Below, piece by piece: positions 5,370-64,000 of a stretch of DNA of 64,000 nucleotides. Origin of the DNA: Steroidobacteraceae bacterium. GTDB lineage: Bacteria > Pseudomonadota > Gammaproteobacteria > Steroidobacterales > Steroidobacteraceae. The notes below the pieces were generated by a model. The model was given only the letters and a program-made list of their open reading frames with translations. It did not search any database and was not told the DNA's origin. The number at the start of each line of letters is the position of its first letter. Position 1 is the first letter of the stretch. A program made the translations under genes and the position numbers. The DNA is taken from contig DATMMK010000029.1 of NCBI GenBank assembly GCA_035569755.1, positions 1,816-65,815 of the forward strand, read 5' to 3'.

Positions 5370-5373
5370 TTTT

Positions 5374-5751: not shown

Positions 5752-7036
5752 TCCGTCGCGCTTCGACAATCTGTGGCTCTTCTATCTGGGCGACCCGTCC
5801 GCCCCGCGTCTCATCGGCGAGCTGCGGTATCTGCAGCTCACTCGCGGTGTCTCGCTCACCTATGCGCAAAGCTGGATCGAGTCGGGCTTTCGGCTCAGCG
5901 AGGATCTGCCGCTCACCGCGAACGAAGCCGCGCCGCGCGAGCCGGGACGGGCCGCCGGCGCGGTGGATGATGCGCGCCCTGACCGCTGGGGCGAGCGCGT
6001 GATCCAGTTTGTCGATCGCCCCGCGAGACTCTCTCTCATGGAGTATCTGTATTTCGCAGGCGACGATCGCTTCGGAGCCCTGGGTGTCTCCACCTCGCCG
6101 GATCAATATCTGCCGCGCGAAGCCGCTCCGATCCCACGACTCGAGGCCGCACAGGCCTTAAGTGACGTGATGCGAAAGATCTCGGCGAAAGAGGCTCTCA
6201 CCACGCAGGAGCGGACGATCGCGCACGCGGGCGGAAGCCTGGGTGGCGCAAAGCCCAAGGCGCTCATCCGCATCGACGGGGAGGAATGGGTCATCAAATT
6301 TTTTGCCGGTGAGCCGACCGATGGGCCGCTCATCGAGCACGCCGCCATGACCCTCGCCCTGAAGGCCGGTATTCGTGCCGCTGAGACGCGTGTGGTGAAC
6401 CTCGCCGGTGAGCACGCAATCGTCGTGCGTCGCTTTGACCGCGCGGGCAAGACCCGCTTGCACTCGCTATCGGCCGGTACGGTGTTGCGTGCGCTCTTCC
6501 CGCACAACCCGGATCTGGGCTACCCGGCCCTTGCTCAGGCACTGCGACGCAGCGGCGAGACCGCCGAGAGCGCCAACGTTCAGCACATGCGCGAGCTCTT
6601 TCGGCGCATGGTGTTCAACATCCTGATCGACAATACGGATGATCACGAGAAAAACCACTCGCTCATCTACCTGCCCGCATCCCGGGCGGGGAGACTGCAT
6701 CTGGCCCCAGCCTATGACGTGCTGCCCACCAATTCAGGTCAGGGACACCAGGAGTTCACCGTAGGGACGCAGGGGCGCGAATCGACCCTGAAGAATGCCA
6801 TATCACAGTGCGCGCTCTTCGACTTATCCAACGAAGAGGCCGCTCAGGCAGTGCTCGAGATCATCGCGGTAGTGGATGGCTGGAAGGATCACTTCGAGTC
6901 GTGCGGGATCACGGGCTCGGATATCGACAATCTCGCCGATCGCCTCGATGGCGAGGAGCCTCTTGCTCAGCGTCGAGGCTTCGCGCCGCAGGATTACGCC
7001 GGACCCGCCCGGCGCCAGCGTCGAAAGCCGTTCTAG
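5741..7036 (+). CDS. hipA: HipA-family serine/threonine kinase toxin
   Basis: N-terminal HipA-coupling region (LWLFYLGDPSAPRLIGEL, RWGERVIQ), P-loop-like GGSLGGAKPKAL, catalytic loop IDNTDDHEKNHS, and APAYDVLPT. Confidence 0.88.
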   Translation: MRSNPSRFDNLWLFYLGDPSAPRLIGELRYLQLTRGVSLTYAQSWIESGFRLSEDLPLTANEAAPREPGRAAGAVDDARPDRWGERVIQFVDRPARLSLMEYLYFAGDDRFGALGVSTSPDQYLPREAAPIPRLEAAQALSDVMRKISAKEALTTQERTIAHAGGSLGGAKPKALIRIDGEEWVIKFFAGEPTDGPLIEHAAMTLALKAGIRAAETRVVNLAGEHAIVVRRFDRAGKTRLHSLSAGTVLRALFPHNPDLGYPALAQALRRSGETAESANVQHMRELFRRMVFNILIDNTDDHEKNHSLIYLPASRAGRLHLAPAYDVLPTNSGQGHQEFTVGTQGRESTLKNAISQCALFDLSNEEAAQAVLEIIAVVDGWKDHFESCGITGSDIDNLADRLDGEEPLAQRRGFAPQDYAGPARRQRRKPF

Positions 7037-7063
7037 CCTCCGGTAGCTCGACCGCGCCGCGGC

Positions 7064-9487: not shown

Positions 9488-9631
9488 GTTATTGCTCCCC
9501 AGGACGGGCTGCGTTTTGTTCGGGCAATGCTACCCGATGCCCCCTAGGGGTGACACCCTATGTGGTGCGCAACATACACATGACGGAAACGTTCAAACAG
9601 GCGCTCGGCGGCGCCGGGCGGAGGCAGCGCC

Positions 9632-10999
9632 CTAGAGGATGTAGCGACTCAGGTCCTCGTCCTTGACGAGCTTGCCGAGGTGATCGTCGACGTACTTCGC
9701 GTCGATGGTGACCGCGCTCGCGCCCGGCGCACCGCCCGTGCCCTGCCCCTCCTGCGCTGCGGCCTCGTAGGAGACGGTCTCGAGGAGGCGCTCCATCACC
9801 GTGTGCAGGCGCCGCGCGCCAATGTTCTCGGTGCGCTCGTTGACCTCGAAGGCGATCTCGGCGATGCGGCGTACGCCGTCCGCGGCAAACTCGACCGTGA
9901 CGCCCTCGGTCGCCATCAGCGCCCTGTACTGCGTGGTGAGCGAGGCGTCGGGCTCGGTGAGGATGCGCACGAAGTCGCCCACTTTGAGCGATTCGAGCTC
10001 GACACGGATCGGCAGACGACCCTGGAGCTCCGGGATCAGGTCCGAGGGCTTCGAGAGGCTGAAGGCACCCGAGGCGATGAACAGCACGTGGTCGGTCTTC
10101 ACCGGGCCGTACTTGGTCGCCACCGTCGAGCCCTCGACCAGCGGCAACAGGTCCCGCTGCACGCCCTCGCGCGACACGTCGGCCCCGAGCGTCTCCTGGC
10201 GGCGCGTCACCTTGTCGATCTCGTCGATGAACACGATGCCGTTCTGCTCGGCGTTGGCGAGCGCGCGGATCTTGAGCTCGTCCTCGTTGATGAGCTTGCC
10301 GGCCTCTTCGTCGGTGAGGAGCTTGAGCGCCTCGCGCACCTTGACCTTGCGGGTGCGGGTGCGGTTGCCGGCGAGGTTCTGGAACATCGACTGCAGCTGC
10401 TGCTGCATCTCCTCCATCCCGGGCGGCGCCATGATCTCAACGCCCATCGGCACGGCGCGCATCTCGATCTCCACCTCGCGGTCGTCGAGCTCGTGCTCGC
10501 GCAGCATCTTGCGGAATTTCTGCCGCGTCTCGGAATCGCGCGCGTGGGCCGGCTCGTCGGTGGAGAAGCCCATCATGCGCGGCTTCGGCAGCAGCGTGTC
10601 GAGCACGCGCTCCTCGGCCGCATCGAGCGCACGCTCGCGCACCTTGGCCATCTCCTGCTCGCGGGTGATCTTAACCGCGACGTCGGCCAGCTCCTTGACG
10701 ATCGAGTCGACGTCGCGGCCGACGTAACCCACCTCGGTGAACTTGGTCGCCTCGACCTTGACGAACGGCGCGTTGGCGAGCTTGGCCAGTCGCCGCGCGA
10801 TCTCGGTCTTGCCGACCCCGGTCGGGCCGATCATGAGGATGTTCTTGGGCGTGATCTCCTGGCGCAGCGGCTCCTCGACCTGCATGCGGCGCCAGCGATT
10901 ACGCAGCGCGATCGCCACGGCGCGCTTGGCCGCGTCCTGGCCAATGATGTGCTTGTCGAGCTCCTGGACGATCTGCCGGGGCGTGAGTGCGGAGGACAT
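9632..10999 (-). CDS. hslU: ATP-dependent protease ATPase subunit HslU
   Basis: [38 protein letters not shown], Walker [25 protein letters not shown]. Confidence 0.97.
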
Positions 11000-18821: not shown

Positions 18822-21218
18822 TCAGCGCTTGGGGCGCCCGGTGAGCTCCCCGAGCGCGCGCAGCTGTGTGATCGTCCCCTCCGAGGCCGGCAGCAGCTGG
18901 TTGGCGCGGCGCACGAACGGCGCGACCTCGGCCACCGGCAGCGGCCGGCTGATGAGATAGCCCTGGGCAAAATCGCAGCCGAGGCGGCGCAGCAGGCTCC
19001 AGGCCTCGGCCTCCTCGACCCCCTCGGCGACCACCTGGAGGCCGAGCGTATGGCCGAGCTCGATGGTCGAGGTGACGATGCTCGCGGCCCCGGTGAGCGC
19101 CTGGCTGATGAGCGAACGGTCGATCTTCAGCTCGTCCACCGGCAGGAGCGAGAGCTGCGACAGCGAGGAGTGGCCGGTGCCGAAGTCGTCGATCGCAAAG
19201 CGCACGCCGGCGATGCGCAGCAGCTGCATGTTGCGGGCCGCGCCCTGCGGGTCGCGCATCACCGCGCTCTCGGTGATCTCGAGCAGGAGCGAGGCGGGAT
19301 GCACGGAGTGGCTGCGCAGCAGCGCGAGGATCTGGTCGCCGAGCTCCGGGTCGAGGATGTCGGGCGCCGAGAGGTTCACGGCCAGCTGCACCTCGAGCCC
19401 CTCTTCGCGCCACTCCCCCAGCTGGCGGATGGCGGTCTTCAGCACCCAGTCGGTGAGCCGGCGCGAGCCGCCGGTGCGCTCGGCGAGCGGCACGAACTCG
19501 CCCGGCGAGACCGGCCCGAGCTGCGGGTGGGTCCAGCGCACCAGCGCCTCGAGACTGCGCACCGTGCGCGCCGCCATGGTGACCAGCGGCTGATACACCA
19601 GCGTCAGCTGGCCGCCGTCGATGGCCGCACGCAGGTCGGTGACGAGCGTCAGGCGGCGGCGGTGCACGTCGTCCTGACCCGGACGGAACATGGCGACGCG
19701 CGCGGCCGTATCGTGCGCGTCCTCGAGCGCCACCTGCGCCCGCTGCAGGAGCTCCTCGGTCGTGCGGCCGTGTTCGGGCAGCAGGCACACCCCGCAGGCG
19801 ACGTGCAGCTCGAGGCCGACGCCGGCGACGTGAAAACCCGAGTGGATGAGCCCGGCGAGCTGCTCGGCGTAGAGGAGCGAGCGCTCGGCGGTGCAGACCG
19901 GGACGATCACCAGGAACTGCGCCTCGCCGAGGCGCGCCACGGTGTCGTTCTGCGAGACGTTCTGGCGCAGGCGGTGAGCAACCTCGCGCAGCACGTCGTC
20001 GCCCACCGAGAAGCCGAGGGATACGTTGATGTCGCGCAGATTCCGCAGGCTGACCAGGATCAGCGCGCCGCGTGCCTCGTCCGCGGCCTCGTGCGCGACA
20101 CGCTCGAGCACCTGGGTGGCGTACCAGCGGTTCGGCAGGTGCGTGAGCGGATCGTGCTGCGCGTGGAAAGTGATCGCCGCTTCGCGCTCGGCGATGTTCC
20201 GCTGCATCGCGTTGAAGGTGCGGGCGAGGCTGCGGAATTCCTCGCCCCCGGAGACGTCGACGGCGGTCTGGTAGTGCCCCTGCTGGATGCGCTGCGCCGC
20301 GCGCACCAGCTGGCCGATGGGACGTGAGGCGGTGCGGCCGAGAACCGCGCCGACGAGCGCCGCCATGAGGAGCGCGACACCGTCGATCGCCAGCATCGCA
20401 TCGCGCAGCTCGCGGTAGGGCGCCAGCACTTCCCGGTGCGGTTTCAGCAGCCGCACCTCGACCAGATCGCCGGGCGCCTCGAGCGGCCGGGCCAGGGTGA
20501 GATAGTCGGTGCCAGCGAGGCGCACGAGGTGTGGCGACTCGGCGGCCGTGGCGGATCCTGAGGCCGGTCCCGCCGTGGCGAGCAGCTGGTTGCGCTCGTC
20601 GGCGGCGAGCGTGGCCGCCACGTGGGTGATGCCGTCGTGCCCGTACACGGTGAGCGCGACCTGCGAGCCGACCAGGTCGCGGATGCGCTGCGCGAGCGCA
20701 TCGTCGGCGACGAAACCCATCGCCACCCAGGCGCGGGTCTCGGGCGTGCGTACCGGGGCGAGCACCAGCTGATAGGCGCTGGGACCGAGAACCATGAAGG
20801 CCGGCTGGTCACGCGCGCCGGGGTCGCGCAGCAGCTGGGCGATGGAGTTGCTGGCGTCGGCTCCGACCGGGACCGTCGAGGCGATCACGCTGCCACGGGT
20901 ATCGAGCACCATGACCATGTCGGCGCCGACGCGCCGGGAGTTGTTGCGGGCGGCGTCGAGGATCGTGAGCGGGTCCCCGCCCGCCACCGCCTCGCGGAAG
21001 CCGAAATCCGCGGACGTTGCGGACACGCCGTTGGCGAGCTCGCCGGCACGGAAGCGCATCAGCTGCAGCGCCAGCGAGGCCCCCGAGCCGAGCTGCTCCT
21101 TGGCCCGCTGCTCCACGGCTCCGCGGGTGCTGGCGAGGACTGCGGCCAGCGTCACAGTTTGGGTGACGATGACCAGGCCTATGATCAGCACGAGAAGTCG
21201 TTTGCGGAAACTACCCAT
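18822..21218 (-). CDS. membrane c-di-GMP turnover sensor: TM, periplasmic domain, TM, HAMP, degenerate GGDEF, EAL
   Basis: The EAL domain is intact (QPLV...SLEALVRW, NLS, EITES, DDFGTGHSSL, KIDRS, AEGVE, QGY). The GGDEF signature is replaced by LGEAQF (codons at 19914-19928). HAMP region around SRPIGQLVRAAQRI. Confidence 0.9.
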   Translation of the reverse strand: MGSFRKRLLVLIIGLVIVTQTVTLAAVLASTRGAVEQRAKEQLGSGASLALQLMRFRAGELANGVSATSADFGFREAVAGGDPLTILDAARNNSRRVGADMVMVLDTRGSVIASTVPVGADASNSIAQLLRDPGARDQPAFMVLGPSAYQLVLAPVRTPETRAWVAMGFVADDALAQRIRDLVGSQVALTVYGHDGITHVAATLAADERNQLLATAGPASGSATAAESPHLVRLAGTDYLTLARPLEAPGDLVEVRLLKPHREVLAPYRELRDAMLAIDGVALLMAALVGAVLGRTASRPIGQLVRAAQRIQQGHYQTAVDVSGGEEFRSLARTFNAMQRNIAEREAAITFHAQHDPLTHLPNRWYATQVLERVAHEAADEARGALILVSLRNLRDINVSLGFSVGDDVLREVAHRLRQNVSQNDTVARLGEAQFLVIVPVCTAERSLLYAEQLAGLIHSGFHVAGVGLELHVACGVCLLPEHGRTTEELLQRAQVALEDAHDTAARVAMFRPGQDDVHRRRLTLVTDLRAAIDGGQLTLVYQPLVTMAARTVRSLEALVRWTHPQLGPVSPGEFVPLAERTGGSRRLTDWVLKTAIRQLGEWREEGLEVQLAVNLSAPDILDPELGDQILALLRSHSVHPASLLLEITESAVMRDPQGAARNMQLLRIAGVRFAIDDFGTGHSSLSQLSLLPVDELKIDRSLISQALTGAASIVTSTIELGHTLGLQVVAEGVEEAEAWSLLRRLGCDFAQGYLISRPLPVAEVAPFVRRANQLLPASEGTITQLRALGELTGRPKR

Positions 21219-55608: not shown

Positions 55609-56121
55609 ATGAAGATCTCGATGCACGCCATGTCGGTGGATGTCTTCACGCGCGCGCTCGGCAATCTCTCGGCCTTTCTCGAGAAGGGCCAGGCGCACGC
55701 CGTGCAGCGCAAGTTCGAGCCCGCGGTGCTGCTCGGCTCGCGGCTCGCGCCCGACATGCATCCGCTCACCCGTCAGGTGCAGCTCGCGAGCGATATCTCC
55801 AAGAACTCCGTCGCGCGGCTCGCCGCGCAGGAGCCGCCGCGCTTCCCGGACACCGAGGCGAGCTTCGAGGAGCTGCACGCGCGCATCGCGCGCACCCTCG
55901 ATTACCTCAAGGGCGTTCCGGCGAGCGCGCTCGAGGGAGCGGAGACGCGCGACATCAAGCTCCCGGCGCGCGGCGATCGCACACTCGAGTTCAAGGGCCT
56001 CGAATTCCTCGAGCACTGGGCGATTCCCAACGTGTTTTTCCACGTGACGACCGCCTACGCGATCCTGCGCCACAACGGCGTCGAGCTCGGCAAGAGCGAC
56101 TTCCTCGGCGGCGCGCGCTGA
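55609..56121 (+). CDS. DUF1993 protein
   Basis: FTRALGNLSAFLEKG...LAPDMHPLTRQVQLASD...NVFFHVTTAYAILRHNGVELGKSDFLG is typical of DUF1993. Confidence 0.85.
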   Translation: MKISMHAMSVDVFTRALGNLSAFLEKGQAHAVQRKFEPAVLLGSRLAPDMHPLTRQVQLASDISKNSVARLAAQEPPRFPDTEASFEELHARIARTLDYLKGVPASALEGAETRDIKLPARGDRTLEFKGLEFLEHWAIPNVFFHVTTAYAILRHNGVELGKSDFLGGAR

Positions 56122-56369
56122 CGATCCGCGCCCCGCGGCCAACAGGCGGCCGCGCGGTTGCGGCGGTGAGGAAACGCGCCCGTCTCTCGGCGCTGCGGCG
56201 CGTGCGCTTCCAATATGACAAATGAAGGCGGCAATCTGTCGCCTTTTGCGAACAAACGCGAGCGAAATCACGGCAGCATGTCCGCCGGACTGCCACCCTT
56301 TCAGCGGAGGGAAAGCGCTGCGCCTGCACGGCGCGCGCTCGGGTCTCAGTCCGGAACCGGGAAGAACCT

Positions 56370-58613
56370 TTGCTGCAGAAATTCAGGGCCGCGCGCGCGG
56401 CTGCCACCCCCGCGTCCGTGCCGACACTTGCACCGGCGGTGCCGCACGGGCCGGCGACGGTCGAGTCTCTCGGCCAGCAGCTGCGCGAAGTCCTGCCCGC
56501 GCGCCGGCTGCAGTCGGTTTCGCTGTGCGATCACGAAGCCAACGTGCTGTGGCTCTCCGAGGGCGCGCTCGGACCCGACGAGCACGTGCTGGTGGTGGAA
56601 GCCCTCGAGGTCCTCACCGCCGATCCCGCCATCCCCTGCCACGAGACCGCCGTCGAGGACGGACGGCTCGCCGTCTTCCTGCCCGTCCGCGCCCCTACGG
56701 GGAGCCTGGTAGGCGTCGCCATGATCCTCGCCGACAGCAAGTCCGTCGGCGATGACACGCTCGAGCGGCTGACCGCGGCACCGGTGCGCTCGATCATGCA
56801 GCGCCTCGCGGTGGCGCTGAAGCCCTCCTCAGCTCACGGAGCCGTCGCCTCGATCGCTCACGACCCTGTGCCTCTCGAGCCCGAGGAAGTCGCGAGCGCG
56901 ATCAAGGCCGCCGTGGCCGGCGAAGCCGCAGAGCCCGCGGAAGCCCTAGAGACCTTCGAAGATCCCAAGCCGGCCGCGGCTTTCGCGGCCGAGATCGAGC
57001 TCGCACTCGCCCCCGAGGCCGAGCCTACCCGAGCGCCGAGGCGGGCCGTGCCGACCGCCGCACCTGCAGCCGCCGACGGCCTCTCCGAATCGGGCATCAC
57101 CGCGGTCGAGATCGCCAACCTGCTCGAGCTCGAGCTCACCCCCGAGGAGGAGGAGTTGCGGCCCGCACCCGCGCGCGCCGCCGCGGCGGCACCCTCGAAG
57201 CAGGTGGCCAAACCGGTGGCCGCCCCGCCCGCGGCCAGCGAGCCCGCCATCGACGACTCCGGGATGCTGAAGCTCGAGTTTCTCGCCGAGCCGCCGGTCG
57301 TGCAGCCCGCAGCGAATCCCACCGCCGTCGCGAAGAAACTCCAGGCGGCCTCCAAGGCGGCCGAGGTCGCGCCGACCCGTGCCCCGCGTCCGCTGCCTGC
57401 CCCGGTGGCGCGCCCGAGCGCGGCGGCCGCAAAGGGCAAGGCGCCGGCACCCGCCGCACCGCCCGTAGCGCGCAGTACGGGACCGGCGCTCGTGCCAGCA
57501 CTGCCCGCACGCAGCCCTTTCGAGCCCGTTCCGGCTCACGCGCGGCTCAGCCTTGAAGCGAGCGACGACGTGGTCGTGCTCTTCGACTCCGACCCGGCCG
57601 AGGTGCCGGCGCGCCCAGCGCCCGCGGCGCCCGCGCCCCCCAAAGCACCGCCCGCCCCTCAGGCGCGCACCGCTCCACCGGCCCGGCCCGCCGCGCAGCC
57701 GACGCGCGTGCCAGTCGCGCGCAGCGCACCCGCGGTGCGCACCGCGACCACCGCCCGTCTCACGCCCGCCGCGCCACGGCCGCAAGCGGCGCGTCCCCCG
57801 GCTGCCGCTCCCGCGCCGGCTCCGGCGGCGGCTCCGCCACGCGCTCCGGCGCCCGCGGCGGCCGCTCCGATCGCTCCCCCGGCAGTGGCGGCGCCCCCGA
57901 CGAGCCCGGCCCTGGACCTCGTTCCCTTTGCGAAGCTGCGTGCCGGCGGTCAGAGCCGGCGCTTCCAGGTGCAGCCGCGCGCATCGGCTTCACAGCGCGA
58001 TTCCGCCGCGCTCGATGAGCAGACCGTGCAGGAGCTGCTCAGCTGGCTCGGCGCCAACCGCGCGCTCTGGAACGGCGTGCCGACGAGCTTCACGGTGAAT
58101 CTCTCGATCGCGACTCTCGAGGACGAGCGCTTCCTCACGAAGGTCGGCGCCGCGCTCAACACTCACGGCATCGCCGCCGAGACGCTCGGCTTCGAGATCG
58201 CCGAGTCGCTCTGCGGGCAGCAGCGTGCCAAGGTCGAGCGCTTCTTCGCCCAGTGCGAGAAGCTCGGCGTCTGGATCGCCATCGACGACTTCTCATTCGA
58301 CTCCCAGATGCTGCCGCTGCTGCGCTCGAAGGCGTTGCGCATGCTGAAGCTCGACGCGCGGCTCACGGCGGCGGCGCTGCGCGACAAGCTCTCACAGGCC
58401 ATGGTGGTGGCCTCCGTACAGGCAGCCAAGGTGCTCGGCATCCATTGCTCGGCCAAGAAGGCCGACTCGCACGCCTCGCTCCAGTACCTCGCTGCAATTG
58501 GCCTCGACTACGCCCAGGGCACTGCGCCTACCAGGACTGTGCCCCTCGAGGCGATCGCGACGATCGTCGATTCCCGCTCCAGCGGGAAGCCGACTCCAGA
58601 AAATAACGAATAA
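56370..58613 (+). CDS. 747-aa protein: small N-terminal sensory-like domain, about 350 aa of Ala/Pro-rich low complexity, and a degenerate EAL-like C-terminal domain
   Basis: TTG start from the ORF track. The C-terminal region keeps the EAL-family landmarks FTVNLS, GFEIAES (58191-58208), IAIDDFSFD (58275-58301), LKLD and DYAQG. It lacks the EAL/ExL signature and the EGVE motif. Confidence 0.68.
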   Translation: MLQKFRAARAAATPASVPTLAPAVPHGPATVESLGQQLREVLPARRLQSVSLCDHEANVLWLSEGALGPDEHVLVVEALEVLTADPAIPCHETAVEDGRLAVFLPVRAPTGSLVGVAMILADSKSVGDDTLERLTAAPVRSIMQRLAVALKPSSAHGAVASIAHDPVPLEPEEVASAIKAAVAGEAAEPAEALETFEDPKPAAAFAAEIELALAPEAEPTRAPRRAVPTAAPAAADGLSESGITAVEIANLLELELTPEEEELRPAPARAAAAAPSKQVAKPVAAPPAASEPAIDDSGMLKLEFLAEPPVVQPAANPTAVAKKLQAASKAAEVAPTRAPRPLPAPVARPSAAAAKGKAPAPAAPPVARSTGPALVPALPARSPFEPVPAHARLSLEASDDVVVLFDSDPAEVPARPAPAAPAPPKAPPAPQARTAPPARPAAQPTRVPVARSAPAVRTATTARLTPAAPRPQAARPPAAAPAPAPAAAPPRAPAPAAAAPIAPPAVAAPPTSPALDLVPFAKLRAGGQSRRFQVQPRASASQRDSAALDEQTVQELLSWLGANRALWNGVPTSFTVNLSIATLEDERFLTKVGAALNTHGIAAETLGFEIAESLCGQQRAKVERFFAQCEKLGVWIAIDDFSFDSQMLPLLRSKALRMLKLDARLTAAALRDKLSQAMVVASVQAAKVLGIHCSAKKADSHASLQYLAAIGLDYAQGTAPTRTVPLEAIATIVDSRSSGKPTPENNE

Positions 58614-58716
58614 ATTCAGCTTCTTCAGGGTCCGGGTGCGACGAAGCGTGGCTCCGGCGCGCCGGGTCGGCCGACGCCCGCAACGACAGATGCCCTAAGC
58701 TCCCCCGACGGGCCCC

Positions 58717-59853
58717 ATGAAGATGCCGACGCTCGAGCAATTCCGTAAGAACCGCAACGTGCTCTTCTGGAGCCTGCACGCGGCGTTCTGGGCTGCGTAC
58801 GGCATCACGCAGTACGTGGGCGACATCTTCTACGCCTACGGCTCCTCCTCGAGCTGGGGACTGCTGCTCCTGATCGTCGCGGGCGCCGGCTTCGTGCTGT
58901 CGGCGCCGATGCGCTACATCTACCGGCAGCTCTGGGGCCGCCAGCCGCGCACCATCGTCGTCAGCGTGCTCCTCACCTGCTACATCACGGCGCTGGCGCT
59001 GCGCCTGGTGATCAACCTCTTCTACCGGGAGCTCATCGCGCCGGACTGGGAGGTGAAGACGCTCTTCGAGCTCTTCGGCGGCGCGCTCTCGACGGCGTAT
59101 CTGCTCCTGTGCTGGAGCGTGCTGTACTTCGGGATCAAGTTCTACGAGTCCAAGCGGCAGCAGGAGGAGGCGATGCTGAAGGCCGTGGCGCTCGCGCAGG
59201 AGGCGCAGCTGAAGATGCTGCGCTACCAGCTCAACCCCCATTTCCTCTTCAATACGCTGAACGCCATCTCGACGCTGATCCTCGACAACCAGAACCGCAA
59301 GGCGAACCAGGCGGTGGCGCGACTGTCGGAGTTCCTGCGGTACACCCTCGACCAGGACCCCATGAAGAAGGTGACACTGCGCCAGGAGATCGAGGCCCTC
59401 GACCTGTATCTCGGCACCGAGCGCTTGCGCTTCGGCGAGCGGCTGCGCCTCGAGTACGCGATCGAGGGGGAGGCACTCGATGCCCTGGTGCCGAGCCTGC
59501 TGCTGCAGCCGCTGCTCGAGAACTCTCTGAAGTACGCGGTGTCATCGCGCGAGCAGGGCGGCATGGTGCGCATCGAGGGCCGCACGCGCGAGGGGCTGCT
59601 CGAGCTCTCGGTCATCGACGACGGCCCCGGGCTCCCCGACGGGCCGCCGCCGGGCGACCGCCGCGGCGTGGGGCTCGCCAACACGCGCGAGCGGCTCAAG
59701 GTGCTCTACGGCGACAGCTGCCGCTTCGCGGCGCTCAACAGTCACCCGGGACTTCGGGTCGATATGGCGCTGCCGCTAGAGACCGCACCGCCTGAGGAGC
59801 GCGCCGCGCAGCGGGCGCTCACCGCGCGGCTTTCGGGAGGTGTCCACGCATGA
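58717..59853 (+). CDS. LytS/YehU-type sensor histidine kinase (second copy in the window)
   Basis: Multiple TM helices, LRYQLNPHFLFNTLNAISTLI, LLLQPLLENSLKYAV, GVGLANTRERL. Confidence 0.85.
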   Translation: MKMPTLEQFRKNRNVLFWSLHAAFWAAYGITQYVGDIFYAYGSSSSWGLLLLIVAGAGFVLSAPMRYIYRQLWGRQPRTIVVSVLLTCYITALALRLVINLFYRELIAPDWEVKTLFELFGGALSTAYLLLCWSVLYFGIKFYESKRQQEEAMLKAVALAQEAQLKMLRYQLNPHFLFNTLNAISTLILDNQNRKANQAVARLSEFLRYTLDQDPMKKVTLRQEIEALDLYLGTERLRFGERLRLEYAIEGEALDALVPSLLLQPLLENSLKYAVSSREQGGMVRIEGRTREGLLELSVIDDGPGLPDGPPPGDRRGVGLANTRERLKVLYGDSCRFAALNSHPGLRVDMALPLETAPPEERAAQRALTARLSGGVHA

Positions 59854-60671
59854 AGGTGCGCACGATCATCGTCGACGACGAGGTACTGTCGCGGCGCGGG
59901 CTCGAGATCCGCACGCGCGAGCTGGCGGACTTCGAGATCGTGGCGCAATGCGCCAACGGCCGCGAGGCGCTCGCCGCCATCCAGCAGTACAAGCCGGATC
60001 TGGTGTTCCTCGACATCCAGATGCCGGCCATGTCGGGCTTCGAGGTGCTGGCACACCTGCCGCAGGAGTCGTTTCCACTGGTGGTGTTCGTCACCGCCTA
60101 CGACCAGTACGCGATCCAGGCGTTCGAGGCGCGGGCCATCGACTACCTCCTGAAGCCCATCGACGAGGAGCGCTTCGCCGAGGCGGTGGAGCGGGTGCGC
60201 GAGCACCTGCGGGCGCGCAGCGCGGCGGCGCAGCGCGACCGCCTCATGCAGATCATCGCCGAGATCACCGGCTGCGGGCAGCTCGCGCTCGATGAGCTGC
60301 TCGAGCACGGCCGCAAGGCGCTCGGCGGCGGGCGGCCCGAGGTGCTGCCGATCCGCCAGGGGCGCGAGACGGTGCGGGTGCCGGTCGCTCGCATCCAGTG
60401 GGTCGATGCGGCCGGCGACTACATGTGCATCCACGTCGACGGCGAGACTCATATCCTGCGCGGCACGATGAAGGAGCTCGAGGAGCTGCTCGACCCGAAG
60501 CTCTTCCAGCGGGTGCACCGCTCGACGATCGTGAACCTGCGCCTGGTACGGAGCCTGCGCGCCCACATGAACGGCGAGTACTTCCTCACCCTCGAGAGCG
60601 GGCACGAGCTGAAGCTCTCGCGCACCTACCGCGACAAGATCGAGTACTTCCTCTCCGGCTCGACCACCTGA
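59850..60671 (+). CDS. LytTR-family response regulator (second copy)
   Basis: TIIVDDEVLSR...DLVFLDIQMPAMSGFE, then LytTR (IQWVDAAGDYMCIHV...FQRVHRSTIVN). The ATG overlaps the kinase stop (ATGA). Confidence 0.9.
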   Translation: MKVRTIIVDDEVLSRRGLEIRTRELADFEIVAQCANGREALAAIQQYKPDLVFLDIQMPAMSGFEVLAHLPQESFPLVVFVTAYDQYAIQAFEARAIDYLLKPIDEERFAEAVERVREHLRARSAAAQRDRLMQIIAEITGCGQLALDELLEHGRKALGGGRPEVLPIRQGRETVRVPVARIQWVDAAGDYMCIHVDGETHILRGTMKELEELLDPKLFQRVHRSTIVNLRLVRSLRAHMNGEYFLTLESGHELKLSRTYRDKIEYFLSGSTT

Positions 60672-60812
60672 AGCGCAACCCGCCCGTACCCCGCGGGAGA
60701 GGCACTCGCGGCTTAAGACAAGTGAGAACTGCGTCACACGCGGGTGAGCCCATCCGCGATCTGTGAGCCACCCCGACGCCGCCACCCGACCGCACCATTA
60801 GTTTGGCGGCGT

Positions 60813-62474
60813 ATGGAAGCCACGTCCCGCCCACCCCTGGAATCCCTGCCCGATCTGCCGGTGGAGGAGCCGGCCGACGCCCCCGCGCCCGACACGGCGT
60901 CGACTCAGACCCTGCTGCAGCCCGAGGCACTCCTCGCGCTCGACGACGAGCCAACCATCCCCGGACTCACCGAAGCGCCGATGCCCGAGCTTCCGCAGCT
61001 GCTCGAAGTCGACCCCGATGCACCGCTCACGCTCGAGAGCAGCTTCGAGGTCGACCGGATGCTGTCGTCGTCCCCCCCGTCCGCGCCCGTGGCGCAACCA
61101 CCCACGGTGCGTGCCGCACCCGTCGAGCCCGAGCTGACTCTTTTTCCGGATACGACAGCGCGCGTGAAGAGCGCCGCGCCCGAACGCGCGCCGACGCCGC
61201 CGGGCGCGAGACCCGCGCCGGCTGCGAAGAGCGGCGATGCCCCGCCACCGGCCGCACCCGCACTGGTGCCGCTCGCGCGGCGTGCCTCGATCAGTGCCGC
61301 CGCCGAAAAGCTCGCCGCCGCGGCCGCAGCGGCCGCCGGCGCCAGCGCACCGCAGGGCGTGGCGAAGCCCTCGCCCCCCATCGCTCCCGCTCCCACGGTC
61401 GTGCCCGTGAGGCCACGCATGGCCCCAACGGAAGCGGCCGCGAGCGTCACGCCGATCGCCAGAAAAGCCGTAGCCCCGGTGAGCGCCTCTCCGGCGACGG
61501 CGGAGGTGCCGCCCGCACCCGCCCCGCCCGCAGCGGCGGCGGATGCTCCATCTCTGGCGAGCTGGGCGAGCGCGCGCGCGGCCGCTGCCTCATCCGCCAG
61601 GACCGCGGCAGGCACCGCGCCCCGCCCGACTGCACCCGCGGCGAAGGCTGCGCCGCCCGCTGCCACCGAAAGGCCGCGTGCCGCCGCACCGGCGGCAGTG
61701 CCCCGGCCGGCGCCCGCTCCCGCAGTACCCCCGCCGGCGGCAACACCCCTGCCGGCCGCAACTCCCGCGCGGGGAATGGACCGCGATTTCATCGCCCGCA
61801 ACCAGGTCGTCGACCGCTATTTCTCGGGCAAGCTCCCGATCAAGGCGGCGACTGAGTTCGAGCGCTACTGCAACGAGCACCCCGAGCTGCTCGATGAGCT
61901 CGGGCTGCCCGAGCGCGTGCACGCGGGACTGCGGCTCCTCGAGGCGAGCGGCAAGCCCGAGCCCTGGCAGGAAGCACCGAAGCCGATCTGGCAGAAGCCG
62001 GCGTCGATCCTCGGCATCGCCGGACTCGCCTTCGTCCTGATGCTCGCGCTCGCGATCGTCGTCGCCGGGAGCTCCGCCAAGAGCCGCAAGATCCTCGAGC
62101 TGCAGCGCCAGGTGGCCGATCGAACGCTCGATGCGGCGACCAGCACCCGCATCATCCGCCTGCTGCCGAGCCGCGCGGGGGCGACCAACACGCCCGCCAT
62201 CGTGATCGGCGATGGCGCGGCGAAGCTCGTCGACTTCCGCATCGACGAGTCGCGCTCACCTTATAAGGATTTCCGCATCACCATCGACCGCCTCGACCAG
62301 GGGCGCGTGATGATCATCGACAATCTCACCAAGGATTCCAACGGCCACCTGCGGGTCGCCGTCAACAGCTCCGCCTTCGGCCCCGGGAACTACCTGCTGA
62401 CCATCGAGGGGCTCACCATGCGCCTCGAGCCGCAACCGGATTCCTGGGTGACGATCGGCATCGCGCAGCGCTGA
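60813..62474 (+). CDS. 553-aa single-pass membrane protein: about 300 aa Ala/Pro-rich N-terminal region, an anti-sigma-like helix, a TM segment and a beta-rich periplasmic domain
   Basis: ATG 60813 chosen; the track ORF starts at 60744. VVDRYFSGKLPIKAATEFERYCNEHPELLDEL resembles anti-sigma N-terminal domains but has no cysteine pairs. TM segment ILGIAGLAFVLMLALAIVVAG. No family recognised for the C-terminus. Confidence 0.58.
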   Translation: MEATSRPPLESLPDLPVEEPADAPAPDTASTQTLLQPEALLALDDEPTIPGLTEAPMPELPQLLEVDPDAPLTLESSFEVDRMLSSSPPSAPVAQPPTVRAAPVEPELTLFPDTTARVKSAAPERAPTPPGARPAPAAKSGDAPPPAAPALVPLARRASISAAAEKLAAAAAAAAGASAPQGVAKPSPPIAPAPTVVPVRPRMAPTEAAASVTPIARKAVAPVSASPATAEVPPAPAPPAAAADAPSLASWASARAAAASSARTAAGTAPRPTAPAAKAAPPAATERPRAAAPAAVPRPAPAPAVPPPAATPLPAATPARGMDRDFIARNQVVDRYFSGKLPIKAATEFERYCNEHPELLDELGLPERVHAGLRLLEASGKPEPWQEAPKPIWQKPASILGIAGLAFVLMLALAIVVAGSSAKSRKILELQRQVADRTLDAATSTRIIRLLPSRAGATNTPAIVIGDGAAKLVDFRIDESRSPYKDFRITIDRLDQGRVMIIDNLTKDSNGHLRVAVNSSAFGPGNYLLTIEGLTMRLEPQPDSWVTIGIAQR

Positions 62475-62501: not shown

Positions 62502-64000
62502 TCAAGCACGCAGCGTCGTCAGCGGCGGCTGATTGACCACCGAGCGCGTCGCGAGCCAGCCGCCCGTCGCCACCAGCAAGGCTCCTCCCACGACGCCGAC
62601 CCCCCAGGGCGTGAGATCGAACGCGTAGCGGAGCTCGAGCCAGCGCGTCGTGAGGAAGTAGGCGGCGAGCGAGGCGCCGGCCGCGGCGATCAGCCCGGAA
62701 AGCAGCCCCAAGGTCACGAACTCCGCGAGCACGCCCTGCACCACGGTGCCGCGACTCGCGCCGAGAGTGCGCAGCATCGCGCTCTCGTAGCGCCGCTCGT
62801 CGCGGCTCGACTGCACCGCCGCGAGCAGCACCGTGAGGCCCGCGAACAAGGTGAACACGAACACGCTCTGCACGGCGAGCGCGGCCTTGTCGAGCACCGC
62901 GCGTACCTGCGCGAGCAGCTCCTCGATGTCGAAGATCGAGACGCTCGGAAAACGGTGCGCGAGCTCGGCGAGCGTGCGCGCAGTCCCCGGGGTGAAGTAG
63001 GCGCTCGTCATGTAGGTACCGGCCATGCGGTCCAGCACCCCGGGCGCGAACACGATGAAGAAATTCGGCCGGAAGCTGTCCCACTTCACCTTGCGGATGC
63101 TCGCCACCGTGGCCTCGATCGTCTCGCCGCCGACGTCGAAGGTCAGCCGGTCGCCGAGGCCCACCCCGAGCGCCTCCTGGAACTCGGTCGCGAGCGACAC
63201 GAGCGGCCTGCCGGCGTCGGCTTGCGTCCACCAGCTCCCGGCGATGATGCGGTTGTCGCTTCCTAGGTCGGTGGTCCAGGTGAGGTTCTGCTCGCGCGTC
63301 GCGAAACCCTCCTCCTCTCCCCGGCCGGCGCGGCGCCCCTCGCCGACCGCGCGTCCGTTGATGGCCGTGAGCCGCCCGCGAATCATGGGAAGCACACGCG
63401 TAGTGCGCGCACCCTGCGCCTCGACGAAGCGGATGAAGGCGTCACGCTCGGCGGGCGGGATGTTGATGAAAAAGTAGTTGGGCAGATCGGGGGGCAGCGT
63501 GCGGCGCCAGTCGCTGTTCAGGTCGTCGCGGATGATGCCGAGGAGCAGCAGCACCATGATGCCGGCGCCGAAGGCCACGAGCTGCACCACGCTCTCGGTA
63601 CGGCGGCGGCTCAGGTTCGCCACCCCGAAGCGCCACGCCACTCCCACCCGCCCCCGCAGGCGTCCGGCGAGCAGCACCAGGGCGGTGCCGGCGAGTGCCA
63701 GCGCCCCGACGAACAGCGCGAGCCCGACGGCCAGATAGAGGAAGAGCCGGGCATCGCGCACCACCCAGTAGATGAGGAAGGCCACTACCGCGACCGCCGG
63801 GCCGAAGGCGAGCAGCACGAGCGGCGGCGGCGGTCCGACGTCGCGCCGCAGGACGCGCAGCGCCGGCACGCGCGTCAGCTGGATGAGCGGCGGCAGCGCA
63901 AAGCCGGCGAGCACCGCGATCGCCGTCATGAACCCGAGCGCCAGCGGCGCGGCCCCGGGCGGCGGGAGCTCGGTCACCGCGAGCAGCCCGCGGATGGTGC
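62502..64000 (-). CDS. FtsX-family ABC transporter permease (YbbP-like), 5'-truncated by the window edge
   Basis: The frame stays open upstream of the track start at 63977 (TIRGLLAVTELPP...). Repeated 4-TM FtsX modules and a large periplasmic loop are present. Confidence 0.8.
   Translation of the reverse strand, partial: TIRGLLAVTELPPPGAAPLALGFMTAIAVLAGFALPPLIQLTRVPALRVLRRDVGPPPPLVLLAFGPAVAVVAFLIYWVVRDARLFLYLAVGLALFVGALALAGTALVLLAGRLRGRVGVAWRFGVANLSRRRTESVVQLVAFGAGIMVLLLLGIIRDDLNSDWRRTLPPDLPNYFFINIPPAERDAFIRFVEAQGARTTRVLPMIRGRLTAINGRAVGEGRRAGRGEEEGFATREQNLTWTTDLGSDNRIIAGSWWTQADAGRPLVSLATEFQEALGVGLGDRLTFDVGGETIEATVASIRKVKWDSFRPNFFIVFAPGVLDRMAGTYMTSAYFTPGTARTLAELAHRFPSVSIFDIEELLAQVRAVLDKAALAVQSVFVFTLFAGLTVLLAAVQSSRDERRYESAMLRTLGASRGTVVQGVLAEFVTLGLLSGLIAAAGASLAAYFLTTRWLELRYAFDLTPWGVGVVGGALLVATGGWLATRSVVNQPPLTTLRA

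What the first reader, a model, noticed from the sequence alone, without database searches (positions are those of the whole stretch)
56370..62474. Four-gene cluster: degenerate-EAL/Ala-Pro-rich protein, LytS kinase, LytTR regulator and an Ala-Pro-rich anti-sigma-like membrane protein
A second LytS/LytTR two-component pair (58717..60671, ATGA-coupled) is flanked on the same strand by two unusual large proteins.

**Upstream protein (747 aa).** It has a small N-terminal sensory-like domain and roughly 350 residues of Ala/Pro-rich low complexity. It ends in a C-terminal EAL-like domain that has lost its catalytic signatures.

**Downstream protein.** It has roughly 300 Ala/Pro-rich residues, a cysteine-less segment resembling anti-sigma N-terminal domains, one TM helix and a beta-rich periplasmic domain.

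**Interpretation.** LytS/LytTR systems of the AlgZ/AlgR type control type IV pili and surface behaviour, and degenerate EAL proteins such as FimX and LapD are c-di-GMP receptors. This arrangement could therefore be an undescribed c-di-GMP-responsive surface or polar-scaffold signalling unit. I recognise no characterised homolog for either flanking protein.
Basis: inference. Interest (0 to 1): 0.7.

Follow-up and report, generated by a model that had tools for sequence, protein, structure and literature searches.

The report
Conserved LytS/LytTR cluster with two disordered partners
Four neighbouring genes, kept together in soil bacteria of the family Steroidobacteraceae, encode an ordinary kinase and regulator pair flanked by two real but uncharacterised proteins with long disordered regions; the layout is new, and nothing shows yet what it senses or controls.

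Summary
Four same-strand genes are present and all four are real coding genes.

- **G1 (56370-58613, 747 aa):** a confidently modelled Roadblock/LC7-like N-domain, a 350-residue Ala/Pro-rich linker, and an EAL-derived C-domain.
- **HK (58717-59853) and RR (59850-60671):** an intact PF06580 histidine kinase and a REC-LytTR regulator, overlapping by ATGA.
- **G4 (true start ATG 60813, 553 aa):** a 320-residue disordered N-region with conserved short motifs, a small helical segment, one TM helix and a periplasmic beta-sandwich.

Most database calls of G4 orthologues (231-232 aa) are truncated. Conservation of frame and motifs across 72 species shows that the long form is real.

The order G1-HK-RR-G4 is kept in 61 of 64 Steroidobacteraceae species genomes. 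G4 is the looser member:
- it has its own conserved promoter-like spacer;
- unrelated genes are inserted between RR and G4 in about a quarter of species;
- its distant relatives lie away from LytS/LytTR genes.

Only the C-terminal two thirds of the EAL fold is detectable in G1. The ExLxR signature region does not align and the general-base Glu is Lys, so c-di-GMP binding is open. I found no link to pili or polarity, and no anti-sigma membership.

Verdict: a lineage-restricted variant of a two-component system with accessory proteins, of moderate interest.

The parts
56212..56299 (+). Conserved non-coding block upstream of G1. It comprises AATATGACAAATG, a terminator-like hairpin with a T-run (56225-56248), tandem CGAAC(A/G)GAA units ending in AATCACGGC (56249-56276), and CTGCCACCCT (56290-56299). 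It probably holds the terminator of the DUF1993 gene and the promoter or operator of G1.
   Evidence: Nearly invariant across 61 species while the flanks vary. The hairpin arms vary in a compensating way in several relatives. No Rfam match. The single-sequence fold is not significant, z = -1.25.
56370..58613 (+). G1, 747 aa, cytoplasmic: Roadblock/LC7-like N-domain, Ala/Pro-rich disordered linker and an EAL-derived C-domain. TTG start; the exact start is uncertain by a few codons.
   Evidence: ORF. GC3 is 0.72-0.96 along the whole frame. All 120 best homologues have both domains, with linkers of 86-304 aa. No TM segment.
56460..56819 (+). G1 N-domain (residues about 31-150) with alpha-beta-beta-alpha-beta-beta-beta-alpha topology and an invariant WLSEGxLGPDEH loop.
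   Evidence: AlphaFold pLDDT 84, pTM 0.76. Foldseek top matches are LAMTOR2/p14 (E 2.5e-5, TM 0.63), MglB and Asgard Roadblock proteins, with GAF-like domains lower. No Pfam hit. The profile finds only fragments of the same family.
56865..57914 (+). G1 disordered linker (residues 166-515; 30% Ala, 21% Pro) with two conserved short motifs: (N/H)DILEFELT near residue 250 and LxLEFLxxPP near residue 300.
   Evidence: Composition and conservation map. The motifs are seen in diverse homologues. The window's linker is the longest seen.
57915..58613 (+). G1 C-domain. About 50 family-specific residues are followed by the EAL-homologous part (about 58065-58565), which keeps N, ExxE, DD, K and Q. The general-base Glu is replaced by Lys and loop 6 is degenerate.
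   Evidence: Pfam EAL profile positions 69-231 only. The PDB profile search aligns from position about 51. hhalign against canonical EALs gives probability 99.1 but only residues 51-217. Invariant columns are listed.
58636..58701 (+). Conserved boxes in the G1-HK spacer: GTGCGACGAAGCGTG (58636-58650) and ATGCCCTAAGCT (58690-58701, with a -10-like TAAGCT). This is a likely separate promoter or operator for HK-RR.
   Evidence: Conserved in 59 species within an otherwise variable spacer of 45-247 nt. Function is inferred.
58717..59853 (+). LytS-family histidine kinase, 378 aa. The hydrophobic N-terminal about 150 residues have no sizeable extracytoplasmic domain. The H-box (NPHF) and the N and G boxes are present.
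   Evidence: Pfam His_kinase E 3.9e-26 and HATPase_c. Hydropathy. PDB 6swj E 1.5e-18.
59850..60671 (+). REC-LytTR response regulator, 273 aa, with start overlapping the HK stop (ATGA).
   Evidence: Pfam Response_reg E 3.8e-24 and LytTR E 3.1e-21. The acidic pocket DDE, the phospho-acceptor Asp in FLDIQMP and the Lys in LLKP are read directly in the sequence. NCBIfam BtsR 172.9 bits against a cut-off of 246.
60722..60771 (+). Conserved elements in the RR-G4 spacer: a CRP/Clp-like palindrome GTGAGAACTGCGTCAC (60722-60737; family consensus TG(T/A)GA-N6-TCACGAA) and CGATCTGTGAGCCAC (60757-60771). This is a likely own promoter or operator for G4.
   Evidence: Conserved in 39 species with a directly adjacent G4. 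It occurs once in the window, which alone is not above chance. The binding protein is unknown.
60813..62474 (+). G4, 553 aa, a bitopic membrane protein.
   Evidence: Gene callers start at 60813. The MEAxSRPxLExLxDLPVEEP N-terminus is conserved. No Pfam or NCBIfam family.
60813..61775 (+). G4 cytoplasmic disordered N-region (28% Ala, 21% Pro) with conserved motifs at residues 1-20, about 72-92, about 152-170 and about 245-260.
   Evidence: The frame is open for at least 250 codons in 69 of 72 species, against 1 and 14 for the other frames. The N-terminal motif is present in 55 species. Conservation map. In P0231, P0233 and P0215 a short linker joins the same N-terminal motif to the conserved module.
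61776..62006 (+). G4 conserved cytoplasmic helical segment (MDRDFIARNQVVxRYxSGxLP...FERxC..HPELLDE...GKPEPWQE).
   Evidence: Highly conserved. AlphaFold gives five short helices at low confidence, pLDDT 46-62. No anti-sigma Pfam hit in this protein or in distant relatives.
62007..62063 (+). G4 single transmembrane helix (residues 399-417).
   Evidence: Kyte-Doolittle peak of 2.96. Long helix in the model.
62142..62468 (+). G4 periplasmic 8-strand beta-sandwich with the conserved motif KDSNGHLRxAxNSSAxGPGxY.
   Evidence: AlphaFold pLDDT 80-92. Foldseek gives only generic Ig-like or cupredoxin-like sandwiches, TM 0.3-0.5.

Best explanation
**Core.** The centre of the locus is a working two-component system. 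A LytS-family kinase has a membrane-embedded N-terminal region and no sensor domain of its own. It phosphorylates a REC-LytTR transcription factor.

**G1.** Kinases of this type usually take their input from partner proteins. I therefore read G1 as the cytoplasmic accessory protein of this kinase or regulator.
- Its Roadblock/LC7-like N-domain would dimerise and dock on a partner.
- Its EAL-derived C-domain is a pseudo-enzyme. It no longer hydrolyses c-di-GMP but keeps a conserved ligand or metal pocket, so it can report a small molecule or hold a protein.

**G4.** G4 is a bitopic envelope protein. Its periplasmic beta-sandwich would read an outside cue and pass it through the membrane to the same kinase. 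It is transcribed from its own promoter and is more loosely attached to the module.

**Shown.**
- The gene structures, the folds of the G1 N-domain and the G4 periplasmic domain, and the loss of catalytic residues in G1.
- The intact catalytic motifs of the HK and RR.
- The conservation of gene order, of the disordered-region motifs and of three promoter-like spacers.

**Inferred.** Every protein-protein contact, the ligand, and the output genes.
For: - **Intact kinase and regulator.** HK and RR have intact catalytic motifs and overlapping genes. The HK has only hydrophobic segments before the kinase core.
- **G1 stays next to HK.** G1 lies directly upstream of HK in every species that has both: 63 loci, median gap 187 nt, only 4 above 400 nt. 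Genes on both sides of G4 are shuffled in the same genomes.
- **G1 architecture is constant.** All 120 best homologues share it. The N-domain is found in no other context.
- **Roadblock fold.** The model is confident and matches MglB and LAMTOR2. A Roadblock protein working with a histidine kinase has a precedent in actinobacterial conservons (PMC13343842, PMC13621833, found).
- **EAL remnant.** N, ExxE, K and Q are invariant. The first Glu of the EGVE motif is always Lys and the second is always Asp. This pattern fits a retained pocket without catalysis.
- **G4 placement.** G4 is adjacent to RR (300 nt or less) in 38 of 53 species and within 10 kb in 61 of 64.
Against: - All evidence for coupling is gene order within one bacterial family (52-97% protein identity between loci). 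Part of it may be plain inheritance.
- DUF1993 upstream and the FtsX/ABC/GDSL genes downstream are nearly as syntenic.
- G4 has its own conserved spacer elements.
- G4 is separated from RR by unrelated genes in 12 of 53 species.
- In L089, G4 stays beside FtsX with no G1, HK or RR within 10 kb.
- The distant relatives of G4 whose contigs could be read are not next to LytS/LytTR genes.
- In L062 the HK is missing and the RR is truncated, yet G1 and G4 remain.
- No interaction was or could be tested.
- No shared motif was found between the two disordered regions.
Confidence: 0.4

Rival explanations
1. G1 is a FimX/LapD-type c-di-GMP receptor, and the four genes form a c-di-GMP-responsive unit controlling type IV pili, surface behaviour or a polar scaffold.
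For: - The C-domain is EAL-derived and catalytically dead, with Glu replaced by Lys at the general base.
- The remaining pocket residues N, ExxE, DD, K and Q are strongly conserved.
- An invariant Q-x3-R pair (FQVxxR) lies about 44 residues before the NLS strand. It could be a degenerate ExLxR; this is my reading, not an alignment result.
Against: - The ExLxR region is not alignable by the Pfam HMM, the PDB profile search or hhalign.
- Three different manual alignments are possible.
- The domain scores far better against active phosphodiesterases than against FimX or LapD. LapD in NCBIfam scores 32.6 bits against a cut-off of 1020.
- Loop 6 is degenerate (DDFSFDSQ).
- There are no pilus, flagellar or polysaccharide genes among the neighbours.
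- The RR is nearest to BtsR, not AlgR.
Confidence: 0.15
2. The gene order is inherited, not functional. HK-RR is an ordinary two-component operon, and G1 and especially G4 are unrelated neighbours. G4 may instead belong with the FtsX/ABC/GDSL (ybbP-ybbA-tesA-like) genes or stand alone.
For: - All 80 loci examined come from one family.
- DUF1993 and FtsX are almost as syntenic as the four genes.
- Conserved promoter-like blocks precede G1, HK and G4 separately.
- G4 lies 100 nt or less from FtsX in 36 of 77 loci and stays beside it when separated from RR in L038, L049, L079, L087 and L089.
- A distant G4 relative (L095) is also convergent with an FtsX gene.
- Distant G4 relatives lack LytS/LytTR neighbours.
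Against: - G1-HK adjacency is never broken by inserted genes, whereas both sides of G4 are.
- In many loci G4 stays beside RR when genes are inserted between it and FtsX (L013, L017, L027, L071, L080-L083).
- The G1 N-domain exists only in this context.
Confidence: 0.3
3. G4 is a membrane-anchored inhibitor of the LytTR regulator. It would work like an ECF anti-sigma factor or like the HdrM/BrsM inhibitors of LytTR regulatory systems, holding the RR at the membrane until a periplasmic cue releases it.
For: - G4 is a bitopic protein encoded directly downstream of a LytTR regulator.
- Its conserved cytoplasmic helical segment has the pattern YLxGxL...FE, which resembles anti-sigma N-termini (my own reading).
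- Membrane inhibitors encoded downstream of LytTR regulators are documented (PMC6193735).
Against: - LRS regulators lack a receiver domain, and their inhibitors carry DUF3021 or DUF2154 (PMC6193735). Here the RR has an intact REC and a cognate kinase, and G4 has no such domain.
- There is no zf-HC2 or RskA hit in G4 or in nine distant relatives.
- There is no sigma factor nearby.
- The helical segment is modelled with low confidence.
- G4 relatives occur without LytTR neighbours.
Confidence: 0.1
4. The Ala/Pro-rich stretches are GC-driven open frames, not translated sequence. In that case G4 is really 231 aa and G1 is two genes.
For: - Most database calls of G4 orthologues are 231-233 aa (98 of the best 120).
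- All six frames hold long ORFs in this 72% GC DNA.
- GC3 falls to 0.70-0.80 within the repeats.
Against: - The in-frame extension is open for at least 250 codons in 69 of 72 species, against 1 and 14 for the other frames. It begins with a conserved MEAxSRP motif in 55 species.
- Four further motifs are conserved at the amino-acid level.
- Variants with short linkers join the same N-terminal motif to the module.
- G1 homologues always have both domains in one ORF despite linker lengths of 86-304 aa.
Confidence: 0.02

Closest known systems
FimX and LapD (degenerate EAL c-di-GMP receptors)
   Same: G1 has a C-terminal EAL-derived domain without catalytic competence, inside a larger signalling protein.
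   Different: - FimX and LapD keep a full EAL fold with an E/KxLxR strand that holds c-di-GMP. In G1 the N-terminal third is not alignable.
- Similarity to FimX and LapD is marginal (E 3e-4 to 5e-4), against E 7e-18 for the active enzyme RbdA.
- G1 has no GGDEF, PAS, HAMP or REC domains. It has a Roadblock-like domain and a 350-residue disordered linker instead.
YdiV/RflP and other EAL-like pseudo-enzymes that act by protein binding
   Same: An EAL-derived domain that cannot hydrolyse c-di-GMP may act on a transcription factor. This comparison rests on my own knowledge.
   Different: G1 keeps N, ExxE, DD, K and Q as invariant or nearly invariant residues. This points to a retained pocket. No binding partner is known.
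LytS-family two-component systems: BtsS/BtsR, LytS/LytR, AlgZ(FimS)/AlgR
   Same: A PF06580 kinase core with HATPase_c, a REC-LytTR regulator and overlapping genes. The short kinase without a GAF or periplasmic domain resembles the AlgZ/FimS layout; that comparison is from my own knowledge.
   Different: - No NCBIfam equivalog cut-off is reached. The best match is BtsR at 172.9 bits against 246, and LytR scores 116 against 375.
- The flanking G1 and G4 have no counterpart in those systems.
- There are no pilus or alginate genes nearby.
Roadblock/LC7 proteins: MglB, LAMTOR2/p14, and CvnB of actinobacterial conservons
   Same: The fold of the G1 N-domain matches (Foldseek E 2.5e-5 to 1e-3, TM 0.5-0.65). 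In conservons a Roadblock protein is encoded with, and works with, a histidine kinase (PMC13343842, PMC13621833).
   Different: - There is no sequence-level match to Pfam Robl_LC7.
- No small GTPase is encoded nearby.
- The domain is fused through a long disordered linker to an EAL remnant, and I found no description of that architecture.
- GAF-like folds also match, at lower rank.
LytTR regulatory systems (HdrRM, BrsRM)
   Same: A membrane protein is encoded just downstream of a LytTR regulator.
   Different: The regulator here has a receiver domain and a kinase. G4 lacks DUF3021 and DUF2154.
Single-pass ECF anti-sigma factors (ZAS, RskA, MucA types)
   Same: The topology is the same: a cytoplasmic helical N-part, one TM helix and a periplasmic domain. 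The YLxGxL...FE pattern is also shared.
   Different: There is no profile match, no zinc motif and no sigma factor gene. G4 also carries an additional 320-residue disordered N-terminal extension.

Membership tests
EAL domain (PF00563), active c-di-GMP phosphodiesterase | Match to the family profile above the curated cut-off | tested here: met
   89.8 bits against a cut-off of 31.3, but only profile positions 69-231 of 236. hhalign against canonical EALs gives probability 99.1 over residues 51-217 of the C-domain.
EAL domain (PF00563), active c-di-GMP phosphodiesterase | ExLxR signature strand and the preceding QP strand | tested here: not met
   Not aligned by Pfam, the PDB profile search or hhalign. 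MAFFT gives conflicting placements.
EAL domain (PF00563), active c-di-GMP phosphodiesterase | General-base Glu of the EGVE motif and an intact loop 6 (DFGTGYSS) | tested here: not met
   AEGVE is replaced by AKK(V/A)D, with Lys nearly invariant. Loop 6 reads DDFSFDSQ.
Degenerate-EAL c-di-GMP receptors (FimX/LapD type) | Binding of c-di-GMP | not testable with these tools
   This needs DRaCALA or ITC. The pocket residues N, ExxE, DD, K and Q are kept, but the ExLxR Arg cannot be placed with confidence.
Degenerate-EAL c-di-GMP receptors (FimX/LapD type) | Specific sequence relationship to FimX or LapD | tested here: not met
   FimX E 5e-4 and LapD E 3e-4, against E 7e-18 for RbdA. NCBIfam LapD 32.6 bits against 1020.
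LytS/LytTR two-component system | PF06580 His_kinase plus HATPase_c kinase with a conserved His | tested here: met
   E 3.9e-26 and 1.7e-7. The NPHF box is present.
LytS/LytTR two-component system | REC plus LytTR regulator with a phospho-acceptor Asp | tested here: met
   E 3.8e-24 and 3.1e-21. The DDE, FLDIQMP and LLKP motifs are read in the sequence.
AlgZ/AlgR, BtsS/BtsR or LytS/LytR orthologue | Reaches the curated equivalog score | tested here: not met
   BtsR 172.9 bits against 246; LytR 116.2 against 375. No kinase equivalog scores above 17 bits.
Roadblock/LC7 (PF03259) | Alpha-beta-beta-alpha-beta-beta-beta-alpha fold | tested here: met
   Model pLDDT 84. Top Foldseek hits are LAMTOR2, MglB and Asgard Roadblock proteins, TM up to 0.65.
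Roadblock/LC7 (PF03259) | Sequence match to the family profile | tested here: not met
   None of the 29 members hits Robl_LC7, even at E up to 10.
Roadblock/LC7 (PF03259) | Partner small GTPase encoded nearby (MglA or CvnD type) | tested here: not met
   None is found among the called genes of the syntenic contigs.
ECF anti-sigma factor | Anti-sigma domain profile match (zf-HC2, RskA and similar) or a HxxxCxxC motif | tested here: not met
   No Pfam hit in G4 or in nine distant relatives. G4 has a single conserved Cys only.
ECF anti-sigma factor | Co-encoded ECF sigma factor | tested here: not met
   None is present in the neighbourhood.
LytTR regulatory system (LRS) | Regulator without a receiver domain, and an inhibitor with DUF3021 or DUF2154 | tested here: not met
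   The RR has a REC domain and G4 has no such domain. The criteria are taken from PMC6193735.

The most novel reading that the evidence does not exclude
G1 and G4 may be a new pair of accessory proteins for a sensor-less LytS kinase. G1 is a Roadblock-fold, EAL-derived pseudo-enzyme on a long disordered tether. It would bind a nucleotide, c-di-GMP or a breakdown product. G4 is a bitopic protein with an equally long disordered arm carrying conserved docking peptides. Together they would assemble a membrane-proximal signalling complex that merges a cytoplasmic second-messenger input with a periplasmic input into one LytTR output.
Probability: 0.15. Interest if true: 0.6.

Novelty: new variant of a known kind. 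Interest (0 to 1): 0.4.

Why it matters
- **If the coupling is real.** It would add a new kind of input device to LytS/LytTR systems, whose signals are mostly unknown. It would also give the first example of a Roadblock-fold domain fused to an EAL remnant, linking two signalling worlds that have not been seen joined: small-GTPase-type platforms and c-di-GMP modules.
- **Annotation.** Hundreds of database entries for the G4 family are truncated to the last 231 residues. They miss a conserved 300-aa disordered arm with docking-type motifs.
- **Limits.** The family is known only from uncultured soil Steroidobacteraceae genomes in the data I could reach. No phenotype or ligand is known. The core is an ordinary two-component system.

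Tried and rejected
1. **GC-driven ORF artefact.** Rejected by the frame and motif conservation test.
2. **Shared docking motif between the two disordered regions.** LEFLxDPPVV in G1 looked like LxLEDPVVDELL in G4. An HMM of the G4 motif scores about 0 bits on the G1 linkers. Rejected.
3. **Riboswitch or known RNA in the conserved leader upstream of G1.**
   - No Rfam hit.
   - The single-sequence fold has z = -1.25.
   - RNAalifold finds no covarying consensus beyond short stems.
   - A terminator-like hairpin remains plausible.
4. **Common operator motif TGCGA-N3-8-GCG(A/T)G upstream of G1 and HK, used as a regulon probe.** It gave 9 matches in the window against 11.5 expected. It is too degenerate to use.
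5. **The CRP-like palindrome.** It occurs once in the window against 0.45 expected. Only its conservation across species is informative.
6. **Placing the EAL motif by sequence.** Three candidates exist:
   - (E/D)(L/V)(L/V)PF at canonical spacing;
   - invariant Q-x3-R with a deletion of about 15 residues;
   - FQVQP read as the QP strand.

   MAFFT, HMMER and hhalign do not decide between them.
7. **The weak hit of the N-domain to 9rc4, a 'virulence factor family protein'** (41 residues, E 6e-4). The fold search does not support it, and I treat it as a local hairpin similarity.
8. **Contexts of distant G4 relatives.** Most contigs were too short to read.
9. **Literature.** I found no paper describing this cluster, a Roadblock-EAL fusion, or Steroidobacteraceae signalling.

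Full report
**What is in the sequence**

The region is 64-80% G+C. It holds four + strand ORFs at the coordinates given.

| Gene | Coordinates | Pfam result |
|---|---|---|
| G1 | 56370-58613 | Partial EAL match, E 2.3e-25, residues 550-718, profile positions 69-231 of 236 |
| HK | 58717-59853 | His_kinase PF06580 (E 3.9e-26) plus HATPase_c |
| RR | 59850-60671 | Response_reg (E 3.8e-24) plus LytTR (E 3.1e-21) |
| G4 | ORF 60744-62474 | Nothing |

- HK and RR overlap by ATGA.
- No NCBIfam equivalog cut-off is reached. The best match for the RR is BtsR at 172.9 bits against a cut-off of 246.
- A paralogous LytS/LytTR pair lies at about 3460-5252, so 'second pair' is correct.
- The same four genes occur on 16 metagenome contigs, where the gene caller starts G4 at ATG 60813, giving 553 aa.

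**Are the Ala/Pro-rich ORFs real?** Yes.

For G1:
- Every one of the 120 best homologues carries both the N-domain and the C-domain in one protein. Their linkers run from 86 to 304 residues, and the window's linker of about 350 is the longest.
- GC3 stays at 0.72-0.96 along the frame.

For G4:
- Of the best 120 database homologues of the C-terminal module, 98 are called as 231-233 aa and so lack the extension.
- In 72 species-level genomes the frame upstream of that 'start' is open for at least 250 codons in 69. The other two frames reach this in 1 and 14.
- The extended ORF begins with MEAxSRPxLExLxDLPVEEP in 55 species.
- Four further motifs are conserved at the amino-acid level.
- Variants exist in which a short linker joins the same N-terminal motif to the module.

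The short calls are therefore truncations.

**Distribution and gene order**
- A scan of one genome per species found relatives of the G4 module in 213 species. The best 80 are all Steroidobacteraceae or unclassified gammaproteobacterial MAGs.
- Of 64 loci with enough upstream DNA, 61 have G1 N-domain, G1 C-domain, HK and RR upstream on the same strand.
- The G1-HK gap has a median of 187 nt and exceeds 400 nt in only 4 of 63 loci.
- RR-G4 is tight (300 nt or less) in 38 of 53 loci. In 12 it exceeds 1 kb. Where I read the spacer, the larger gaps held unrelated inserted genes (a cupin, a short-chain dehydrogenase and others) or a longer disordered arm.
- The whole neighbourhood is syntenic too: DUF1993 upstream, and a convergent FtsX/ABC pair with a GDSL lipase downstream.
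- When gene order breaks, G4 sometimes stays with FtsX (L038, L049, L079, L087, L089) and sometimes with RR (L013, L017, L027, L071, L080-L083).
- An exhaustive profile search finds 728 clusters related to the G4 module. These include 219-232-aa relatives without the long arm.
- The distant relatives whose contigs could be read are not next to LytS/LytTR genes. One is again convergent with an FtsX gene.

G1-HK-RR therefore behaves as the core and G4 as a looser member.

**Regulatory spacers**

Three conserved non-coding blocks stand out against variable flanks.

| Position | Content |
|---|---|
| Upstream of G1, 56212-56299 | Invariant AATATGACAAATG; a terminator-like hairpin with compensating arm changes in relatives and a T-run; tandem CGAAC(A/G)GAA units |
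| Upstream of HK, 58636-58650 and 58690-58701 | Two conserved boxes, the second with a -10-like TAAGCT |
| Upstream of G4, 60722-60737 and 60757-60771 | A CRP/Clp-like palindrome TG(T/A)GA-N6-TCAC(G/A), and a second box |

- I infer three transcription units (G1; HK-RR; G4). This is not shown.
- No Rfam family matches.
- The candidate operator motifs are too degenerate to define a regulon.

**G1 anatomy**

*N-domain.*
- It models confidently (pLDDT 84, pTM 0.76) as alpha-beta-beta-alpha-beta-beta-beta-alpha.
- The best structural matches are Roadblock/LC7 proteins: LAMTOR2/p14 (E 2.5e-5, TM 0.63), MglB and Asgard Roadblock proteins. GAF-like domains rank lower.
- No Pfam profile matches it.
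- A profile search finds it only in this family.
- An invariant loop, WLSEGxLGPDEH, caps the second helix.

*Linker.* It is 30% Ala and 21% Pro and has two conserved short motifs.

*C-domain.*
- It is homologous to EAL domains only from about 10 residues before the NLS strand onwards. This holds for Pfam, for the PDB profile search (best hit RbdA/PA0861 at E 7e-18; FimX 5e-4; LapD 3e-4) and for hhalign against seven canonical EALs (probability 99.1, residues 51-217 only).
- Within that part, N, ExxE, K and Q are invariant and the DD pair is nearly so.
- The first Glu of EGVE, the general base, is Lys. The second is Asp. Loop 6 is degenerate.
- The roughly 50 residues before it are highly conserved in the family but cannot be aligned to the QP and ExLxR strands. 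Three manual placements are possible.

G1 is therefore not an active phosphodiesterase. Whether it binds c-di-GMP cannot be decided here.

**G4 anatomy**
- A 320-residue disordered arm with docking-type motifs.
- A conserved helical segment, modelled at low confidence.
- One TM helix.
- A well-modelled 8-strand beta-sandwich (pLDDT 80-92) that matches only generic Ig-like or cupredoxin-like folds.
- No anti-sigma profile, no zinc motif and no sigma gene.
- The LytTR-regulatory-system criteria (no receiver domain; DUF3021 or DUF2154) are also not met.

**How it most likely works**
- HK and RR have all their catalytic motifs, and the kinase has no sensor domain of its own.
- I therefore read G1 as a cytoplasmic accessory or adaptor. 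It would be a Roadblock-type dimer platform plus an EAL-derived pseudo-enzyme pocket. G4 would be a possible periplasm-facing co-sensor.
- I give about 0.6 to G1-HK-RR forming one module. My stated confidence in the whole four-protein explanation, G4 included, is 0.4.
- The precedent for a Roadblock protein working with a histidine kinase is the actinobacterial conservon (PMC13343842, PMC13621833). Here, however, no GTPase is encoded nearby.
- The main rival is that the gene order within one family is mere inheritance (0.3).
An anti-sigma or LRS-like inhibitor role for G4 rates 0.1, and ORF artefact about 0.02.

**Novelty**
- I found no description of the cluster, of a Roadblock-EAL fusion, or of the G4 family.
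- It is a new, lineage-restricted variant of a known kind: a two-component system with accessory proteins and a degenerate EAL protein.
- Interest is moderate. The architecture is unusual and the annotation correction is useful. The core is ordinary, however, the function is unknown, and the hosts are uncultured in the data I reached.

Noticed in passing
window 61776-62474, and P0121-P0240: Most public gene calls for orthologues of the downstream protein start at the internal Met (MDRDFIARNQ), giving 231-233 aa. They miss a conserved N-terminal arm of about 300 aa. This is a systematic mis-annotation in high-GC MAGs.
   Followed up: yes
window 56212-56299: A block of about 90 nt upstream of G1 is nearly invariant across 61 species. 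It comprises AATATGACAAATG, a hairpin with a T-run, tandem CGAAC(A/G)GAA units (with a 10-nt duplication in L021, L023 and L027), and CTGCCACCCT. No Rfam match. It could be a terminator plus operator, or an unknown leader element.
   Followed up: partly
window 60722-60737: A CRP/Clp-like palindrome, TG(T/A)GA-N6-TCAC, is conserved in the RR-G4 spacer of 39 species. It hints that G4 is under a cyclic-nucleotide-type regulator rather than the LytTR protein.
   Followed up: partly
window 62502-63977 (- strand) and beyond; L001 12653-16447: Downstream lie a convergent 830-aa FtsX permease with an ABC ATPase, and a divergent GDSL lipase. This is the tesA-ybbA-ybbP arrangement as I recall it from E. 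coli. G4 lies 100 nt or less from the FtsX gene in 36 of 77 loci. A distant G4 relative (L095) is also convergent with an FtsX gene.
   Followed up: partly
L062 about 5373-10687: In this species genome the kinase is missing and the regulator is reduced to a fragment (7018-7410), while G1 and G4 remain. This may be natural decay of the two-component core, or an assembly artefact.
   Followed up: no
window 55609-56121: A DUF1993 (DinB/YfiT-like) gene sits directly upstream of G1 in essentially every species. The terminator-like hairpin separates the two. One database protein (P0273) fuses DUF1993 and the G1 N-domain, probably through a miscall.
   Followed up: no
window 3460-5252: This is the first LytS/LytTR pair of the window, at 37% and 30% identity to the pair studied. 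It was not checked for comparable flanking proteins.
   Followed up: no
window 18822-21218 (- strand): A canonical, apparently active EAL protein has the full EALxR, NLS, EITE, DDFGTG, KID and EGVE motifs (E 1.6e-57 to PDB 8arv). It served as an in-genome reference for what G1 has lost.
   Followed up: partly
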